IMG/VR virus record: IMGVR_UViG_647533159_000003
Source: a virus
Lineage: Duplodnaviria; Heunggongvirae; Uroviricota; Caudoviricetes
DNA length: 46,723 nt
Direction: 5' to 3' (one strand)
Below the pieces are notes generated by a model. The model worked only from the letters and a program-made list of their open reading frames with translations. It made no database searches and was not told where the DNA came from. Of this stretch, positions 12,451-20,417 are shown piece after piece. The translations under genes were made by a program, and so were the position numbers. Numbering within the stretch: position 1 is the first letter of the stretch; every line of letters starts with the position of its first letter.

Positions 12451-12663
12451 TTTCATATTGGCGAGGTGATGGGAGTTAAGTAGAATTGCTGCGGGTGCTT
12501 GAGGCTATCTGCCTCGGGCATGAACACCAACGGCAGATAGAGAAAAGCCCCAGTTAACATTACGCGTCCTGCAAGACGCTTAACATTAATCTGAGGCATA
12601 TCTGTATGCGACACATAAAGATTAGCCTCTTAACAGTAAGAAATCAACTAACAGGGGGCTGTA

Positions 12664-12809
12664 ATGCGAAGGAGCTATGTGTTTTGTCTGGTGGTGGTTT
12701 GCATCACCATTCTGATATTTGTCTGGATGGTTCGCTATGCGAGCTGCACATCAGGCAGGGAAACACAGAGCTTTCAGCGTATTTAGCCTACGAAGTTGAA
12801 AAACGTTAA
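12664..12809 (+). pseudogene. hok/gef-family type I toxin gene with an internal frameshift (mok-like overlapping frame 12606-12809)
   Basis: Frame from ATG 12664 gives MRRSYVFCLVVVCITILIFVWMVR (Hok TM-like); the Hok C-terminal signature SLCELHIRQGNTELSAYLAYE continues in the adjacent frame. Confidence 0.55.
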
Positions 12810-15508: not shown

Positions 15509-15868
15509 ATGCGTATAGAGTTTGTTTTGCCTTACCCACCGACAGTGAACACCTACTGGCGGCGTCGTGGCAGCACATATTTTGTATCAAAAGCCGGTGA
15601 GCGTTATCGCAGGGACGTTGCGCTTATCGTTCGTCAACTGCAATTGAAATTAAATCTGTCCGGAAGGCTGGCGATAAAGATTATTGCAGAGCCGCCGGAT
15701 AAGCGCCGTCGTGACTTGGACAACATTCTGAAAGCACCACTGGATGCACTGACGCATGCGGGGCTTCTCATAGACGACGAGCAGTTTGATGAAATTAATA
15801 TTGTGCGCGGTCTTCCTGTTCCTGGTGGTCGGTTGGGGATAAAAATCACAGAACTGGAGTGCGCATGA
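15509..15868 (+). CDS. rusA: Holliday junction resolvase RusA
   Basis: 119 aa; ...DKRRRDLDNILKAPLDALTHAGLLIDD... matches the RusA family. Confidence 0.85.
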   Translation: MRIEFVLPYPPTVNTYWRRRGSTYFVSKAGERYRRDVALIVRQLQLKLNLSGRLAIKIIAEPPDKRRRDLDNILKAPLDALTHAGLLIDDEQFDEINIVRGLPVPGGRLGIKITELECA

Positions 15869-16554
15869 ATAACCAGTATTTACAGTTTGTTCGTGAGCAG
15901 CTCATTATCGCCACCGCCGATTTGAGTGGGGCAACAAAAGGCCAGCTTGAAGCCTGGCTGGAGAATGCCATGTTCGATACAGGGCGTTACAGGCGTAAAA
16001 AAATCCGGTACCGCGATGAAGTGACTGGAAAAATGATCACGCGGGATAATCCACCAATCCCGGGGAAACAATCGCTGGCAAAGGGGACGTCAATTCCTCT
16101 GGTAAGTCAGGTTGAGTTTTCGACATCATCATGGCGACGGGCAGTTCTGTCTCTTGAAGAACACCATAAAGCCTGGTTGCTGTGGTGTTACAGCGGCAGC
16201 ATTTGCTGGGAACACCAGATTGCGATAACACAGTGGGTGTGGAATGAATTTAACGCCCAATCCGGTACCAGAAAAATTGCAGGGAAAACGCTGGAGCGCC
16301 TGAAAAAATTAATCTGGCTGGCGGCACAGGATGTGAAGAGTGAGCTGGCTGGGCGTGAAACTTATGAATATCAGGAGCTGGCATTACTGGCGGGAGTAAC
16401 AACAAAAAACTGGTCCAAAACATTTACTGGTCACTGGGTTGCAATGAAACACATTTTCCACCGTCTGGATAGTGAGGCTTTATTGTTTGTGATGAGAACA
16501 CGTTCAGAACAAAAGGCGGCATTTTCAAAGCAAAGTGTTGCAAAAGTAGATTAA
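15865..16554 (+). CDS. Putative late-gene antiterminator Q
   Basis: ATG overlaps the rusA stop (ATGA); sits directly upstream of a strong promoter plus terminator (PR'/tR'-like). Confidence 0.6.
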   Translation: MNNQYLQFVREQLIIATADLSGATKGQLEAWLENAMFDTGRYRRKKIRYRDEVTGKMITRDNPPIPGKQSLAKGTSIPLVSQVEFSTSSWRRAVLSLEEHHKAWLLWCYSGSICWEHQIAITQWVWNEFNAQSGTRKIAGKTLERLKKLIWLAAQDVKSELAGRETYEYQELALLAGVTTKNWSKTFTGHWVAMKHIFHRLDSEALLFVMRTRSEQKAAFSKQSVAKVD

Positions 16555-16566
16555 AAGGCATATATT
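16538..16566 (+). promoter_or_regulatory. Late promoter candidate (PR'-like)
   Basis: TTGCAA (16538-16543)-17 nt-TATATT (16561-16566), overlapping the Q stop codon. Confidence 0.55.
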
Positions 16567-16616
16567 TCGTGCAAATCTGATATTTTGCCGATTTTGTACA
16601 CGATGGCAAAGCAAGC

Positions 16617-16644
16617 AAAACCCGCTGCCGAGCGGGTTTTTTTA
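16617..16644 (+). terminator. Rho-independent terminator about 50 nt downstream of the late promoter (tR'-like)
   Basis: CCCGCT-gccg-AGCGGG followed by TTTTTTT. Confidence 0.75.
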
Positions 16645-16878
16645 TGTCCGCAAAATGGCGTGGAAGAAAAAATTAATCAGATTGTAACTGAGATAAAAAA
16701 CAATCGTTAAATATGCATTTAATAATTTCTTTATTTCATAAAAAATAAAAACATATATGTATATTTACAAATCTTGATGTGATTTTCCATTGAAAAGAGA
16801 GCTGGTATTATTAATATCGGTCCCCGGTTCCGAAGGGGATGTAAGCGCGGTCATTTTTATTTCTCTTGAGGAACCAGT

Positions 16879-16954
<76 letters not shown>

Positions 16955-16957
16955 TAT

Positions 16958-17032
<75 letters not shown>

Positions 17033-17370: not shown

Positions 17371-17430
17371 ATGTATACCCTGGCGGTTATTATGACGGCT
17401 TGTTTTTTTGTTCATAAGAGGATTGATACA

Positions 17431-17934
17431 GTGGTCACTTATGCGGATATCAGGGCGAAACAAGCCGAAATTCTGAAAGCTGAGCAGGAATACATTCAGC
17501 GGTTGCGGGATACAGCCAAAAGGCTGGTCAGTGTTTATGAAGACTCACTGGAATTGCCAGCTTCACAGTGGCGCGATATTAACGGCAAAGAACGTCCGTA
17601 TGTTTATATTTTGTGGAATGGGCACAATACAAAACCTGAGGATTTGCGAGTAGAGCTTCAGGATGGTGTCGCATTTGATTTGTGGACTGTCGTTGATGAT
17701 AACCCTCGTCAGTCTGCAAGCGTGAAGGTTGCGGTAAAGATTGTGTTGCTTGATGGCGATAACATAACGATTTCGGTTAATGGTTATCAGGTCAGAACAT
17801 TTTCGCACGTAGATTCGCACGCAAAATTTAACGAGGTATGCGAGTTCATCAAAGACAGTATTTTAATGTCGATGAATGATGTGAAATTTGGCAAAGCATC
17901 TCTTCCGAAGATAGAGGGCTGGAGCCGAAAATAG
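17431..17934 (+). CDS. Hypothetical cargo protein (167 aa) at the Q-lysis moron locus
   Basis: AAGAGGA SD 8 nt before GTG 17431 (the in-frame ATG 17371 abuts a terminator, so is unlikely to be the start). Confidence 0.6.
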   Translation: MVTYADIRAKQAEILKAEQEYIQRLRDTAKRLVSVYEDSLELPASQWRDINGKERPYVYILWNGHNTKPEDLRVELQDGVAFDLWTVVDDNPRQSASVKVAVKIVLLDGDNITISVNGYQVRTFSHVDSHAKFNEVCEFIKDSILMSMNDVKFGKASLPKIEGWSRK

Positions 17935-17956
17935 TTCGAAAATCTCTGAATCACCA

Positions 17957-17982
17957 GGCTACGCATTTGCGTGGCCTTTTTT
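17957..17982 (+). terminator. Rho-independent terminator after the cargo gene
   Basis: Imperfect hairpin GGCTACGC/GCGTGGCC followed by TTTTTT. Confidence 0.6.
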
Positions 17983-18118
17983 GTATCCGCGCCACGCCCG
18001 GCGCACATCAAAAACCACAGAGCCTTTCAGGGGTGAGCTTACGGGATGGTCAGTGTGACTTTCTCTGTGGGCTGGTCACCCCCGGGCGCAGGCTCACCCA
18101 CTAAAAGGAAAAGTCACG

Positions 18119-18544
18119 ATGTTTGGTATTTTCAAAAAGAAAACCCGCAAGGCCATTACTGAAGTAAAGAAAATGGAGAACCGCGACGCAGTGGAGGCGA
18201 CCGTCTGGGGTGCGTATTCCATCGCATTCGCCGACGGCACCTGTGATGCGAAAGAAATCGCGGTGCTGGAGAAAACCATTGCAGCACTTCCTGCTTTTGC
18301 GCCGTTCTCCGGTGAGATTGCACAAATGAGTGCAAATATCCGCGCCCGTTATGAAGCGTCGCCGCGTTCTGCCAATGCCGAAGCTCTTCGTCAGCTGGCT
18401 GATGTTGCCGGTACTGATGATGCAGTTAATGTGCTGTGCCTGTGTCTGGATATCGCTGACCAGGATGGCATTGGTCCGGATGAAGAAGCACAGCTCAAGA
18501 AAATTGCTCAGGCGCTGCAGTTGCCGCTGGAGCAGTACCTGTGA
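18119..18544 (+). CDS. TerB-like (tellurite-resistance TerB domain) protein
   Basis: 141 aa; two repeats of the pattern I(A)xADGxxDxxE...L (SIAFADGTCDAKEIAVLEK...; LDIADQDGIGPDEEAQLKK). Confidence 0.55.
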   Translation: MFGIFKKKTRKAITEVKKMENRDAVEATVWGAYSIAFADGTCDAKEIAVLEKTIAALPAFAPFSGEIAQMSANIRARYEASPRSANAEALRQLADVAGTDDAVNVLCLCLDIADQDGIGPDEEAQLKKIAQALQLPLEQYL

Positions 18545-18693
18545 AAAGTGCGCGCCTTGTGTTGGCTGCCATCCTGCTGTTTCTGGTGGTGGCGGTGGAT
18601 TTCACCGGACGGCTGATGTCGGTGCTGGCAGATGGTGTGCTGGTGGCGATGGCGCTGGTTGTGCTCCGGCCTTTACTGCGCAAATCTGAATAA
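18541..18693 (+). CDS. Putative 50-aa two-TM membrane peptide coupled to the TerB-like gene
   Basis: GTG 18541 overlaps the TerB stop (CTGTGA); VKSARLVLAAILLFLVVAVDFTGRLMSVLADGVLVAMALVVLRPLLRKSE. Confidence 0.3.
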   Translation: MKSARLVLAAILLFLVVAVDFTGRLMSVLADGVLVAMALVVLRPLLRKSE

Positions 18694-18741
18694 CATCACA
18701 CAAAAGGCATCTGCGGGTGCCTTTGACGGGGTGTTTTTTAC

Positions 18742-18763
18742 GGGCCGCTGGTGGCCCTTTTTT
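18742..18763 (+). terminator. Rho-independent terminator closing the TerB-like cassette
   Basis: GGGCC-gctggt-GGCCC followed by TTTTTT. Confidence 0.65.
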
Positions 18764-18783
18764 ATTTACAGGAGAAAAAAAGT

Positions 18784-19176
18784 ATGTCTGAACCCTTATC
18801 CGGTTCCGGCACGGCTGCGGCGCTCGGCGGGGCGACGGTATTCGGGCTGTTTACCGGAACGGATTTCGGGATTGTGTTTGGTGCGTTCGCCGGGGCGTTA
18901 TTTGTGGCAACAATTCCGCAGGCGCTTTCAGCCTGGCGTGTGGCGGCGCATTTTCTGGTGTCGTTCATTATCGGCGTGCTGGGGGCAGAGGTTCTGGCAT
19001 CCTGGCTGGTAAAGCACACAGGGTTTGACGGTGCACCTGTCGACGCATTGTGTGCAGTACTGGTGTCAGTGGTGTCGGTGAAGATTCTCTCGTTCATCCA
19101 CCAGCAGGATATTGCATCACTGGTGTCCGGCCTGTTCTCCCGCCTGCGGGGTGGAGGAGGCGGCAATGTTAAGTAA
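18784..19176 (+). CDS. Putative holin (Gly-rich multi-TM membrane protein)
   Basis: AGGAG SD; three hydrophobic segments; directly upstream of the endolysin block. Confidence 0.5.
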   Translation: MSEPLSGSGTAAALGGATVFGLFTGTDFGIVFGAFAGALFVATIPQALSAWRVAAHFLVSFIIGVLGAEVLASWLVKHTGFDGAPVDALCAVLVSVVSVKILSFIHQQDIASLVSGLFSRLRGGGGGNVK

Positions 19177-19441
19177 CCTTCCCGGATTACTGAATGTGGC
19201 GTTATGCACGGTTATCGTGCTGACGCTCTTTTTTTATCGTCGTCGTGACTCCAGACACAAACCGCTGATGTCATGGCTGGCCTGGCTGCTGATGCTGCTT
19301 TATGCCTTTGCGCCCCTCAGCTATCTGTGTGGTCGCCCGTTAGCGGCGAACTGGCTGGCGGTGGGGCTTAATCTGCTGTTCTGCGTGCTGGTGATACGTG
19401 CACGCGGGAACGTTTCAAAAATTCTTTCATTCCGGAGGTGA
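19166..19441 (+). CDS. Putative second holin/antiholin-type membrane protein
   Basis: GGAGGAGG SD; overlaps the preceding ORF by 11 nt; 2-3 TM segments. Confidence 0.45.
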   Translation: MLSNLPGLLNVALCTVIVLTLFFYRRRDSRHKPLMSWLAWLLMLLYAFAPLSYLCGRPLAANWLAVGLNLLFCVLVIRARGNVSKILSFRR

Positions 19442-19443
19442 GT

Positions 19444-19821
19444 ATGTCGGGTAAATTCAGATTCAGCCGTCGCAGTGAAAAAAATCTGGAGGGCGTTAAA
19501 CCACAGCTGGTTGCTGTAGTTCGCCGTGCGCTGGAGCTGACGGAGGTTGATTTCGGTATTACGGAAGGGCTGCGCACGAAAGAACGCCAGAAACAGCTGG
19601 TTGCAGAAGGTAAGAGCCGGACCATGAACAGCCGCCACCTGACCGGTGATGCGGTGGATGTTGTGGCCTACATTGGCAGCCAGGTGTCATGGGACTGGCC
19701 TCTGTACGAGAAAATCGCGCAGGCATTTAAGCAGGCTGCCGCAGAGCTGGGAACTGCCATCGAATGGGGCGGGGACTGGAAAACACTGAAAGACGGGCCT
19801 CACTTTCAGTTGAAACGCTGA
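19444..19821 (+). CDS. Endolysin, peptidase M15 family (L-alanyl-D-glutamate peptidase, T5 Lys-like)
   Basis: GGAGG SD 5 nt before ATG 19444; zinc-site-like HLTGDAVD and DGPHF; N-terminus resembles T5 endolysin. Confidence 0.8.
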   Translation: MSGKFRFSRRSEKNLEGVKPQLVAVVRRALELTEVDFGITEGLRTKERQKQLVAEGKSRTMNSRHLTGDAVDVVAYIGSQVSWDWPLYEKIAQAFKQAAAELGTAIEWGGDWKTLKDGPHFQLKR

Positions 19822-19853
19822 TAACCAGGTGTGTTATGAGCAGAAAACACTGG
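19752..19853 (+). repeat. 102-bp direct repeat, copy A (endolysin 3' end plus first 18 nt of the next gene)
   Basis: Identical to 20418-20519. Confidence 0.95.
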
Positions 19854-20417
19854 NNNNNNNNNNNNNNNNNNNNNNNNNNNNNNNNNNNNNNNNNNNNNNN
19901 NNNNNNNNNNNNNNNNNNNNNNNNNNNNNNNNNNNNNNNNNNNNNNNNNNNNNNNNNNNNNNNNNNNNNNNNNNNNNNNNNNNNNNNNNNNNNNNNNNNN
20001 NNNNNNNNNNNNNNNNNNNNNNNNNNNNNNNNNNNNNNNNNNNNNNNNNNNNNNNNNNNNNNNNNNNNNNNNNNNNNNNNNNNNNNNNNNNNNNNNNNNN
20101 NNNNNNNNNNNNNNNNNNNNNNNNNNNNNNNNNNNNNNNNNNNNNNNNNNNNNNNNNNNNNNNNNNNNNNNNNNNNNNNNNNNNNNNNNNNNNNNNNNNN
20201 NNNNNNNNNNNNNNNNNNNNNNNNNNNNNNNNNNNNNNNNNNNNNNNNNNNNNNNNNNNNNNNNNNNNNNNNNNNNNNNNNNNNNNNNNNNNNNNNNNNN
20301 NNNNNNNNNNNNNNNNNNNNNNNNNNNNNNNNNNNNNNNNNNNNNNNNNNNNNNNNNNNNNNNNNNNNNNNNNNNNNNNNNNNNNNNNNNNNNNNNNNNN
20401 NNNNNNNNNNNNNNNNN
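19854..20417. other. Run of 564 N flanked by identical 102-bp sequence
   Basis: n characters; flanks are exact duplicates, suggesting an unresolved contig join or a masked insertion. Confidence 0.99.

What the first reader, a model, noticed from the sequence alone, without database searches (positions are those of the whole stretch)
18119..18763. TerB-domain protein plus coupled 50-aa two-TM peptide as a second terminator-bounded cassette before the lysis genes
The 141-aa protein shows two TerB-like repeats (I(A)xADGxxDxxE...L). A possible 50-aa membrane peptide starts within its stop codon (CTGTGA), and a terminator closes the unit at 18742-18763. TerB-like domains recur in stress and phage-defence contexts, and a soluble TerB protein paired with a membrane peptide immediately upstream of a holin may be a lysis-timing or defence-associated module.
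Basis: partly seen in the sequence, partly recalled or inferred. Interest (0 to 1): 0.5.

Follow-up and report, generated by a model that had tools for sequence, protein, structure and literature searches.

The report
Phage tciA–tciB (TerB + DUF3927) cargo cassette
This is an ordinary, already-annotated copy of the phage P1 tciA–tciB gene pair (a TerB-domain protein plus a tiny membrane peptide) in a lambdoid prophage; its function has never been tested, it is not tied to the lysis genes, and it sits behind a conserved, apparently undescribed RNA leader that hides its ribosome-binding site.

Summary

RefSeq annotates the same pair in at least 20 listed E. coli genomes; the DNA matches 746 of 5,426 complete genomes. 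The pairing is robust. DUF3927 follows TerB in 91/91 close relatives and in 9/12 divergent phage loci, always with a tight junction.

In P1/P7, N4-like, jumbo and Pseudomonas phages the pair lies away from lysis genes, so a lysis-timing role is not supported. No PADLOC defence profile matches. P1 tciABC is non-essential and named only by homology.

My best inference is a miniature TerB-plus-membrane-partner module that conditions the inner membrane during phage growth. This is untested.

A new side finding is a ~135-nt leader (17986-18118). It is more conserved than the gene, is supported by covariation, pairs the tciA Shine-Dalgarno sequence with CCUUU, and has no Rfam match. Diverged copies precede other cargo genes.

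The parts
17956..17984 (+). Intrinsic terminator that closes the preceding cassette (ORF187) and marks the 5' edge of this one.
   Evidence: a 9-bp stem, AGGCTACGC-ATTT-GCGTGGCCT, followed by TTTTTTG.
17986..18118 (+). Conserved structured 5' leader of tciA. It has a small hairpin (GCGCC/GGCGC), an A/C-rich spacer, and a long branched stem in which CCUUU (18023-18027) pairs with the tciA Shine-Dalgarno sequence AAAGGA (18104-18109).
   Evidence: It is 84-96% identical in loci whose TciA is only ~43% identical, and 72% identical in an Erwinia jumbo phage. The RNAalifold structure has 7 compensatory pairs. On 47 distinct sequences, 96.6% of cells are paired and 20 pairs change on both sides, against 4.2±1.2 in shuffles. 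There is no Rfam match. MFE is -54 kcal/mol with z -2.0.
18119..18544 (+). tciA: a 141-aa cytoplasmic single-domain TerB-family protein.
18529..18544 (+). Coupling junction: the GGAG Shine-Dalgarno sequence for tciB lies inside the last codons of tciA, and the tciB start overlaps the tciA stop (GTGA).
   Evidence: One search shows the sequence. The CTGTGA overlap is kept in 85 of the 86 auto-scored close-relative loci; the other has TGATG. Junctions are tight in all 9 divergent paired loci.
18541..18693 (+). tciB: a 50-aa DUF3927 peptide, predicted to be an N-in/C-in two-helix membrane hairpin with conserved D20, D31-G32 and (W/R)43-P44.
   Evidence: Pfam DUF3927 gives E 2.4e-14 and PHROG 1470 gives E 2.5e-24.
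18692..18763 (+). Two tandem terminator-like hairpins that close the cassette: about 18692-18740, ending in a U6 run, and 18742-18757 followed by a T-run to 18763.
18784..19821 (+). Context only: the lysis cassette. It holds a Phage_holin_8 holin (18784-19176), a 3-TM holin (19166-19441) and an M15 endolysin (19444-19821).
15859..17032 (+). Context only: a Q-like antiterminator (15859-16554), tRNA-Thr (16879-16954) and tRNA-Gly (16958-17032) upstream. The cassette therefore lies in the late-operon cargo slot.
   Evidence: PHROG 304, E 2e-109.

Best explanation
Identity (near certain): this is a lambdoid-prophage copy of the phage P1 tciA-tciB pair. It is carried as a self-contained cargo cassette (leader, tciA, tciB, terminators) in the slot between the Q antiterminator/tRNA genes and the lysis genes.

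Mechanism (inferred, not shown):
- TciA is a cytoplasmic TerB domain. Its two conserved acidic DG...E motifs are the presumed cation-binding site of the family. Its conserved hydrophobic-polybasic N-terminus (MFGIFKKK) would sit at the membrane surface.
- TciB is a 50-aa helical hairpin in the inner membrane with acidic residues at or within the bilayer.
- The two proteins are made together by translational coupling.
- In this prophage they are transcribed with the Q-dependent late operon. Translation of tciA is gated by a conserved leader hairpin that buries its Shine-Dalgarno sequence.
- I propose the pair works as a miniature version of the TerB-TerC core of Ter systems: a membrane component capped by a cytoplasmic TerB sensor.
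- On this view it conditions the inner membrane (ion and proton-motive-force homeostasis) of the infected cell. That would protect phage development from membrane-directed insults such as pore-forming colicins, superinfecting phages, abortive-infection pores or premature holin firing.
- It is an accessory module of general use to phages, not a component of the lysis clock.
For: Identity:
- establish what the genes are.

Pairing:
- DUF3927 directly follows TerB in 91/91 close relatives. auto-scored 86 as paired; the five it flagged 'unpaired' carry the ORF on inspection.
- It also follows TerB in 9/12 divergent phage loci (TerB 31-85% identical), always with a -4 to +3 nt junction.
- Two independent TerB-DUF3927 fusion proteins exist (P0171, P0247).

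Timing and expression:
- The pair occurs in phages I take to be virulent (N4-like Schitoviridae, an Erwinia jumbo phage, Pseudomonas Nickievirus, Pantoea LIET2). This argues for a role during lytic growth rather than only lysogen fitness.
- In P1/P7 the pair lies in the C1-repressed ban operon.
- P1 TciA peptides were detected in lysate-derived virion preparations (PMC9024508).
- Here the cassette lies downstream of a Q-like antiterminator, and no sigma-70-like promoter was found in the leader.

Leader: it sequesters the Shine-Dalgarno sequence and has covariation support.

Family knowledge:
- ter operons confer phage inhibition and resistance to pore-forming colicins as well as tellurite resistance (as cited in PMC7371120 and PMC9603915).
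- TerB is reported as an interaction partner of the membrane protein TerC (Turkovicova 2016, as cited in PMC11003894).
- TerB proteins are described as amphitropic and occur with membrane effectors in defence systems (bioRxiv 2025.09.30.679545).
Against: - No experiment addresses the function. P1 tciA, tciB and tciC are named 'by homology' only.
- CRISPRi knock-down of each P1 gene gave no plating defect (PMC10695390).
- TciB shows no detectable similarity to TerC or to any family other than DUF3927.
- The partnership is not obligatory. TerB occurs without DUF3927 in Pseudomonas phages AF and PMBT3 and in Vibrio phage BUCT194. A DUF3927 gene occurs without TerB in E2348/69 prophage PP2.
- Deeply diverged TerB alleles (34% versus 85% identical to the query) sit next to nearly identical TciB in P7 versus P1, and in SP-058 versus SP-076. 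This argues against tight co-evolution of an interface.
- Metal binding, membrane insertion and any TciA-TciB contact are all inferred.
Confidence: 0.4

Rival explanations
1. Lysis-timing device: TciB acts as an antiholin or holin modulator, and TciA regulates it, tuning when the adjacent holins fire.
For: The cassette lies immediately upstream of two holin genes here and in most close relatives. TciB is a small two-TM peptide, the size class of some holins and antiholins. It would be co-transcribed with the late lysis genes.
Against: In the divergent phage lineages with the pair that were examined outside lambdoids (P1/P7, N4-like, Erwinia jumbo, Pseudomonas Nickievirus, Pantoea LIET2), it is not next to lysis genes. 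In PPyecE and JLK-2012 the next gene is a sialate esterase. There is no Pfam or PHROG holin match. Terminators separate the cassette from the holin. P1 knock-downs plate normally.
Confidence: 0.1
2. Lysogenic-conversion defence or superinfection exclusion: the prophage expresses TciAB to protect its host from other phages or colicins, like the Phi and PacB phenotypes of ter operons or the TerB-containing systems Shango, Bunzi and Dionysus.
For: TerB domains recur in validated defence systems, often with membrane effectors. ter operons inhibit phages and pore-forming colicins. The cassette has the terminator-bounded layout of a moron. It is common in E. coli prophages: 746 of 5,426 genomes match.
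Against: No PADLOC model matches either protein. The partner genes of Shango, Bunzi or Dionysus are absent from the neighbourhood. No promoter-like site was found for lysogen expression, and the cassette lies behind late-operon terminators. The pair is also carried by phages I take to be virulent, which have no lysogen to protect, although exclusion during lytic growth remains possible.
Confidence: 0.2
3. Counter-defence: phage TciAB neutralises a host membrane- or TerB-based immune or abortive-infection pathway. It would form part of an anti-defence island together with the phage tRNA genes it so often neighbours.
For: The pair is present in phages I take to be virulent as well as temperate ones. 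Same-strand tRNA genes lie within about 0.1-1.4 kb upstream in most lambdoid loci, and also in P1/P7, an Erwinia jumbo phage and a Pseudomonas Nickievirus. That phage tRNAs can offset tRNA-targeting defences is my own background knowledge, not tested here.
Against: This is purely contextual. The tRNA linkage may only reflect shared cargo hot spots or common descent of a tRNA-tciAB block. No known anti-defence family matches.
Confidence: 0.15
4. Genuine tellurite resistance, as the RefSeq product name suggests.
For: TerB-family membership and the product name in RefSeq.
Against: Resistance needs other ter genes; a lone terB is considered insufficient (PMC8421299; minimal constructs are terBCDEF). 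No TerC, TerD or TerE gene lies beside it.
Confidence: 0.03

Closest known systems
[quoted passage not shown]
   Same: TciA is 85% identical over all 141 aa. TciB is a clear homologue (54 aa in P1, with the same VDFT...LSDG...WP motifs). The tciA-tciB junction is equally tight, and tRNA genes lie nearby.
   Different: There is no tciC. P1's pair lies in the C1-controlled ban operon without the structured leader, whereas here it lies in the Q-dependent late region behind the leader and next to the holins.
TerB of terZABCDE(F) tellurite/phage/colicin resistance operons (Pfam PF05099; TerB-like structures 2h5n and 2ou3)
   Same: The same domain, the same all-helical fold, and the same duplicated acidic DG...E motifs.
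   Different: There are no TerC, TerD, TerE or TerZ partners; a 50-aa DUF3927 peptide takes their place. The Pfam score is modest (30.5 bits), and a sequence search of the PDB finds no TerB.
TerB-containing anti-phage systems (Shango SngA, Bunzi BnzA, Dionysus DinB)
   Same: A TerB domain is combined with a membrane component; Dionysus has a TM protein and a pore-forming toxin.
   Different: There is no PADLOC profile match. The ATPase/helicase, MAEBL and pore-forming-toxin partners are absent. This pair is phage-borne rather than located in a host defence island, and it is much smaller.
SD-sequestering mRNA leaders opened by a trans-factor or by processing (for example the rpoS leader and sRNAs; RNase III-processed phage leaders). 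This comparison applies to the leader only.
   Same: A long hairpin pairs the Shine-Dalgarno sequence with an upstream CCUUU, and an A-rich single-stranded stretch lies 5' of it.
   Different: There is no sequence relationship and no Rfam family. The activator, if any, is unknown. The resemblance is drawn from my own knowledge and was not tested.

Membership tests
TerB family (Pfam PF05099) | Profile match above the curated threshold | tested here: met
   30.5 bits against a gathering score of 24.4, E 4.9e-7. PHROG 632 gives E 1.3e-64.
TerB family (Pfam PF05099) | TerB-like all-helical fold | tested here: met
TerB family (Pfam PF05099) | Duplicated acidic motif (A-D-G-x5-E) forming the putative cation site | tested here: met
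   D39, G40 and E46 are invariant. D116, G117 and E122 are invariant or ≥90% conserved across 31-98% identity.
TerB family (Pfam PF05099) | Actual metal binding or membrane association | not testable with these tools
   Requires biochemistry.
ter operon (terZABCDE) | Neighbouring TerC, TerD, TerE or TerZ genes | tested here: not met
   The neighbours are a Q-like protein, tRNAs, ORF187 (PHROG 5091), DUF3927, holins and an endolysin.
P1 tciABC module | TciA orthologue | tested here: met
   85% identity over 141 aa.
P1 tciABC module | TciB (DUF3927) immediately downstream and translationally coupled | tested here: met
   PF13064 gives 53.5 bits against a cut-off of 25. PHROG 1470 gives E 2.5e-24. 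The start and stop overlap as GTGA.
P1 tciABC module | Third small gene, tciC (35 aa) | tested here: not met
   Only 90 nt, filled by two terminator hairpins, separate the tciB stop from the holin ATG. No ORF fits there.
Holin/antiholin | Match to a holin family, or conserved linkage to lysis genes | tested here: not met
   TciB matches no holin family. The pair is not next to lysis genes in P1/P7, N4-like, jumbo, Nickievirus or LIET2 phages.
Known anti-phage defence systems (PADLOC-DB v2) | Profile match to a component of a known or candidate system | tested here: not met
   Zero families at E ≤ 0.1 for TciA, TciB and ORF187. Dionysus (2025) is not in that library, so it was not tested.
Moron (promoter-gene-terminator cargo unit) | Own terminator and own promoter | tested here: inconclusive
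   Terminators are present on both sides. No sigma-70-like promoter was found at 17985-18118. Instead there is a conserved structured leader.
Rfam RNA families (for the leader and the 3' region) | Covariance-model match | tested here: not met
   Nothing reaches gathering score. Only chance-level hits appear at E ≤ 10 in 17900-18800. The 3' region does not resemble the PasA or PasD2 sequences of E2348/69.

The most novel reading that the evidence does not exclude
The ~135-nt leader (17986-18118) would be an undescribed cis-regulatory RNA class of enterobacterial phages. It is a terminator-proximal, SD-sequestering branched hairpin that gates translation of several unrelated cargo genes: tciA of both clades, an Ant/KilAC antirepressor, and a 246-aa unknown protein. 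It is conserved from E. coli lambdoid prophages to an Erwinia jumbo phage. Behind it, TciA-TciB would be a widespread two-protein phage module that guards or remodels the inner membrane during infection, a minimal Ter system.
Probability: 0.3. Interest if true: 0.55.

Novelty: already known. Interest (0 to 1): 0.3.

Why it matters
The gene pair itself is not new. It is P1 tciA-tciB, and RefSeq annotates it as 'TerB family protein / DUF3927 family protein' in many E. coli genomes.

Three points make it worth attention:
- A pair this widespread and this faithfully linked still has no tested function. It occurs in temperate and apparently virulent phages of Escherichia, Salmonella, Klebsiella, Erwinia, Pantoea and Pseudomonas.
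- TerB domains are now turning up in anti-phage systems whose mechanism is equally unclear. A two-gene phage version is the simplest available handle on what a TerB domain does at the membrane.
- The structured leader, if confirmed, would show how cargo genes embedded in the late operon are translationally gated.

Tried and rejected
1. A sequence search of the PDB with TciA returned only chance PNPase hits (E ~0.02). Fold comparison was needed instead.
2. NCBIfam gave only a sub-threshold DjlA hit.
3. PADLOC gave nothing.
4. I asked whether the 3' end of the cassette (18694-18768) is a PasA/PasC/PasD-type prophage sRNA, because those lie beside holin and DUF3927 genes in EPEC. I fetched E2348/69 PP2 and located PasD2 and PasA from the published coordinates and seed sequences. 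They do not resemble the window sequence, so I rejected this.
5. Rfam at a permissive E-value over 17900-18800 gave only chance hits.
6. tblastn of TciB against phages was crippled by the low-complexity filter, which masked TM1. It found only 14 records, so I could not quantify how often DUF3927 occurs without TerB.
7. I looked for a sigma-70 promoter in the leader. None appeared in the scan, and manual inspection found no conserved -10 box.
8. The leader is unlikely to be a small protein-coding ORF: the alignments contain 1-nt indels and paired compensatory changes rather than codon periodicity.
9. I did not model the TerB-DUF3927 fusion, because the tool returns no inter-residue contacts.
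10. A crude classification of the downstream neighbour is contaminated by spurious ORFs. I used it only qualitatively.

Full report
**1. What is in the sequence**

- The GTG start of the second ORF overlaps the TGA stop of the first (CTGTGA). A GGAG lies 8 nt upstream of it, inside the last codons of the first gene.
- Intrinsic terminators flank the unit. One is at 17956-17977 plus a T-run. The other is at 18742-18757 plus a T-run.
- A second hairpin followed by a U-run lies just before the downstream terminator, at about 18692-18740.
- Upstream lie a Q-like antiterminator (PHROG 304, E 2e-109), tRNA-Thr and tRNA-Gly, and an unknown 187-aa gene (PHROG 5091).
- Downstream lie two holins and an M15 endolysin.
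- The cassette therefore occupies the classic cargo slot of a lambdoid late operon.

**2. Identity of the two genes**

The 141-aa protein is a TerB-family protein.
- Pfam TerB (PF05099) scores 30.5 bits against a gathering score of 24.4.
- PHROG 632 'tellurite resistance' gives E 1.3e-64.
- It is 85% identical over its full length to phage P1 TciA.
- An AlphaFold2 model built on a 37-sequence alignment is confident (pLDDT 86.8, pTM 0.81) and all-helical.
The acidic motifs A-D39-G40...E46 and A113...D116-G117...E122 are invariant or nearly so across homologues of 31-98% identity.
- The N-terminus MFGxFKKK is also conserved. The model has low confidence there.

The 50-aa ORF is a real gene.
- It matches Pfam DUF3927 (53.5 bits against a cut-off of 25) and PHROG 1470 'TciB-like'.
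- It has 209 homologues in the large protein database.
- The family is small: only 42 representatives at 50% identity among 1.84 billion proteins.
- Pairwise dN/dS is 0.14-0.73.
- It has two hydrophobic segments and basic termini, which I read as an N-in/C-in hairpin. Conserved residues are D20, D31-G32 and (W/R)43-P44.

RefSeq already annotates this trio as 'tellurite resistance TerB family protein | DUF3927 family protein | putative holin'. The 851-nt query matches 746 of 5,426 complete E. coli genomes, 154 of them over at least 80% of its length.

**3. Is the pairing meaningful?**

Yes.
- In 91 loci carrying close relatives of TciA, the DUF3927 ORF follows every time.
  - auto-scored 86 of them as paired; 85 keep the GTGA overlap and one has TGATG.
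  - The five loci it flagged 'unpaired' carry the ORF on inspection of the printed sequences. Four were missed by my ORF caller, and L011 holds a diverged DUF3927-like ORF below the HMM threshold.
- Among 12 divergent phage loci (TerB 31-85% identical to the query), 9 have a DUF3927 homologue immediately downstream. These are P1, P7, Salmonella N4-like SP-076 and SP-058, PPyecE, JLK-2012, Erwinia jumbo phage Caitlin, Pseudomonas phiK7B1 and Pantoea LIET2. Their junctions span -4 to +3 nt.
- Pseudomonas phages AF and PMBT3 and Vibrio phage BUCT194 lack it.
- The reverse also happens. E2348/69 prophage PP2 has a DUF3927 gene behind an unrelated 247-aa gene, with no TerB.
- Two fusion proteins joining both domains exist (P0171 and P0247). 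Given the overlap, these are most simply 1-nt indels, so they are weak evidence.
- P1 versus P7, and SP-076 versus SP-058, carry deeply different TerB alleles next to almost identical TciB. Any physical interface must therefore rest on the parts conserved in both TerB clades.

**4. Does context support a lysis or defence role?**

- The pair is not next to lysis genes in P1/P7 (the C1-controlled ban/tRNA region), the N4-like phages, the jumbo phage, the Nickievirus or LIET2.
- Among lambdoid relatives the downstream neighbour varies. In PPyecE and JLK-2012 it is a sialate esterase.
- TciB matches no holin family. The lysis-timing idea is therefore not supported.
- On defence, no PADLOC model matches, and the partner genes of the TerB-containing systems Shango, Bunzi and Dionysus are absent.
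- Those systems do show that TerB domains work with membrane components in phage-host conflict.
- The literature on tciABC is annotation-level only. CRISPRi knock-down of each P1 gene is tolerated. TciA peptides were seen in P1 virion preparations.

**5. Mechanism proposed**

The steps below are inferred, not shown.
- Shown: the TerB fold and acidic motifs, the membrane-hairpin character of TciB, the conserved coupling, the late-operon position, and presence in phages I take to be virulent.
- Inferred: TciA and TciB form a cytoplasmic-cap plus membrane-anchor unit analogous to the reported TerB-TerC core.
- Inferred: this unit conditions the inner membrane during phage development, which would also account for the colicin and phage phenotypes historically tied to ter genes.
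- My confidence in the identity is above 0.95. My confidence in this mechanism is about 0.4. Defence or exclusion (0.2), counter-defence (0.15), lysis timing (0.1) and tellurite resistance (0.03) are the rivals.

**6. An unexpected element: the leader**

- The ~135 nt between the upstream terminator and the tciA ATG (17986-18118) are better conserved than the gene.
  - They are 84-96% identical in loci whose TciA is only ~43% identical.
  - They are 72% identical in the Erwinia jumbo phage.
- RNAalifold on a MAFFT alignment predicts a small hairpin and then a long branched stem.
  - In the stem, CCUUU (18023-18027) pairs with the Shine-Dalgarno sequence AAAGG (18104-18108).
  - Seven of the 35 predicted pairs show compensatory changes.
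- A covariance model found the leader upstream of tciA in both clades.
- It also found diverged copies upstream of other genes, each directly after a terminator:
  - an Ant/KilAC antirepressor (L119, L158);
  - a 246-aa unknown protein (L005, L123);
  - a further ORF (L161).
- On 47 distinct sequences, 96.6% of cells pair and 20 pairs change on both sides. Shuffles give 4.2±1.2, and slid controls give at most 7. That alignment is model-fitted, so it leans towards the structure.
- Rfam has no match, and the element is not a Pas sRNA.
- I read it as a translational gate on cargo genes of the late transcript.
- What opens it (RNase III processing, an sRNA with Hfq, or co-transcriptional kinetics) is unknown.

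**7. Verdict**

- The finding is a correct description of a known, named, widely annotated but functionally uncharacterised phage gene pair.
- The specific lysis-timing interpretation fails the comparative test.
- The defence interpretation remains open.
- The leader RNA and the recurrent linkage to phage tRNA genes are the parts that deserve follow-up.

Noticed in passing
window 17986-18118; also L005:6480-6596, L119:8854-8993, L121:14210-14346, L161:157-273(-), L098:1198-1340, L144:263-402(-): A conserved structured leader with no Rfam match sequesters the Shine-Dalgarno sequence of the downstream gene. It occurs upstream of tciA in both clades, and diverged copies lie upstream of an Ant antirepressor and other cargo genes, always just after a terminator.
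   Followed up: partly
window 16879-17032; loci L001, L097, L098, L099, L102 and most of L015-L094: tciAB recurrently lies within about 0.1-1.4 kb of same-strand phage tRNA genes in lambdoid prophages, P1/P7, an Erwinia jumbo phage and a Pseudomonas Nickievirus. The tRNA sets differ (Thr-Gly, Met-Arg-Arg, Met-Lys-Thr-Gly-Val, Asn-Thr). I did not test this against a whole-genome null.
   Followed up: partly
L001 vs L102 (P1 vs P7); L095 vs L101 (SP-076 vs SP-058): Closely related phages carry deeply diverged TerB alleles (85% versus 34%, and 67% versus 35% identity to the query) next to nearly identical TciB. This implies allele replacement by recombination, with a breakpoint near the 5' end of tciB.
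   Followed up: no
L226 (E. coli E2348/69, NC_011601 740958-741328): A DUF3927 gene without an upstream TerB gene follows a 247-aa PHROG-1521 protein. It is followed 41 nt later by the published Hfq-dependent sRNA PasD2. DUF3927 genes and prophage sRNAs therefore share this cargo region.
   Followed up: partly
P0171 (196 aa), P0247 (197 aa): Predicted TerB-DUF3927 fusion proteins occur in both TerB clades. They are probably 1-nt indels at the overlapping stop/start, or sequencing errors, rather than natural fusions.
   Followed up: no
window 12493-12666: A sok antitoxin RNA (Rfam RF01794, 98 bits) indicates a hok/sok-type toxin-antitoxin locus in the prophage early region.
   Followed up: no
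window ~19830-20400: A run of N (masked or unresolved sequence) lies just after the endolysin. The same ~70-nt coding sequence appears on both sides of it (…GRGLENTERRASLSVETLITRCVMSRKHW…). This looks like an assembly gap or a masked repeat, so the Rz/Rz1 region cannot be read.
   Followed up: no
H1/H28 (PP818812.1); L003, L008, L014: A record named 'Actinobacillus phage vB_Apl-pPE4' is 95.5% identical in DNA to this E. coli prophage region. Contigs labelled Bacillota MAG, Pseudomonas lundensis and Kocuria sabuli carry 86-95% identical tciA. Host labels or assemblies may be contaminated.
   Followed up: no
window 17371-17934: The preceding terminator-bounded cassette encodes a 187-aa protein of unknown function (PHROG 5091, E 8.6e-49; no Pfam, NCBIfam or PADLOC match). 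It lacks the leader element.
   Followed up: no
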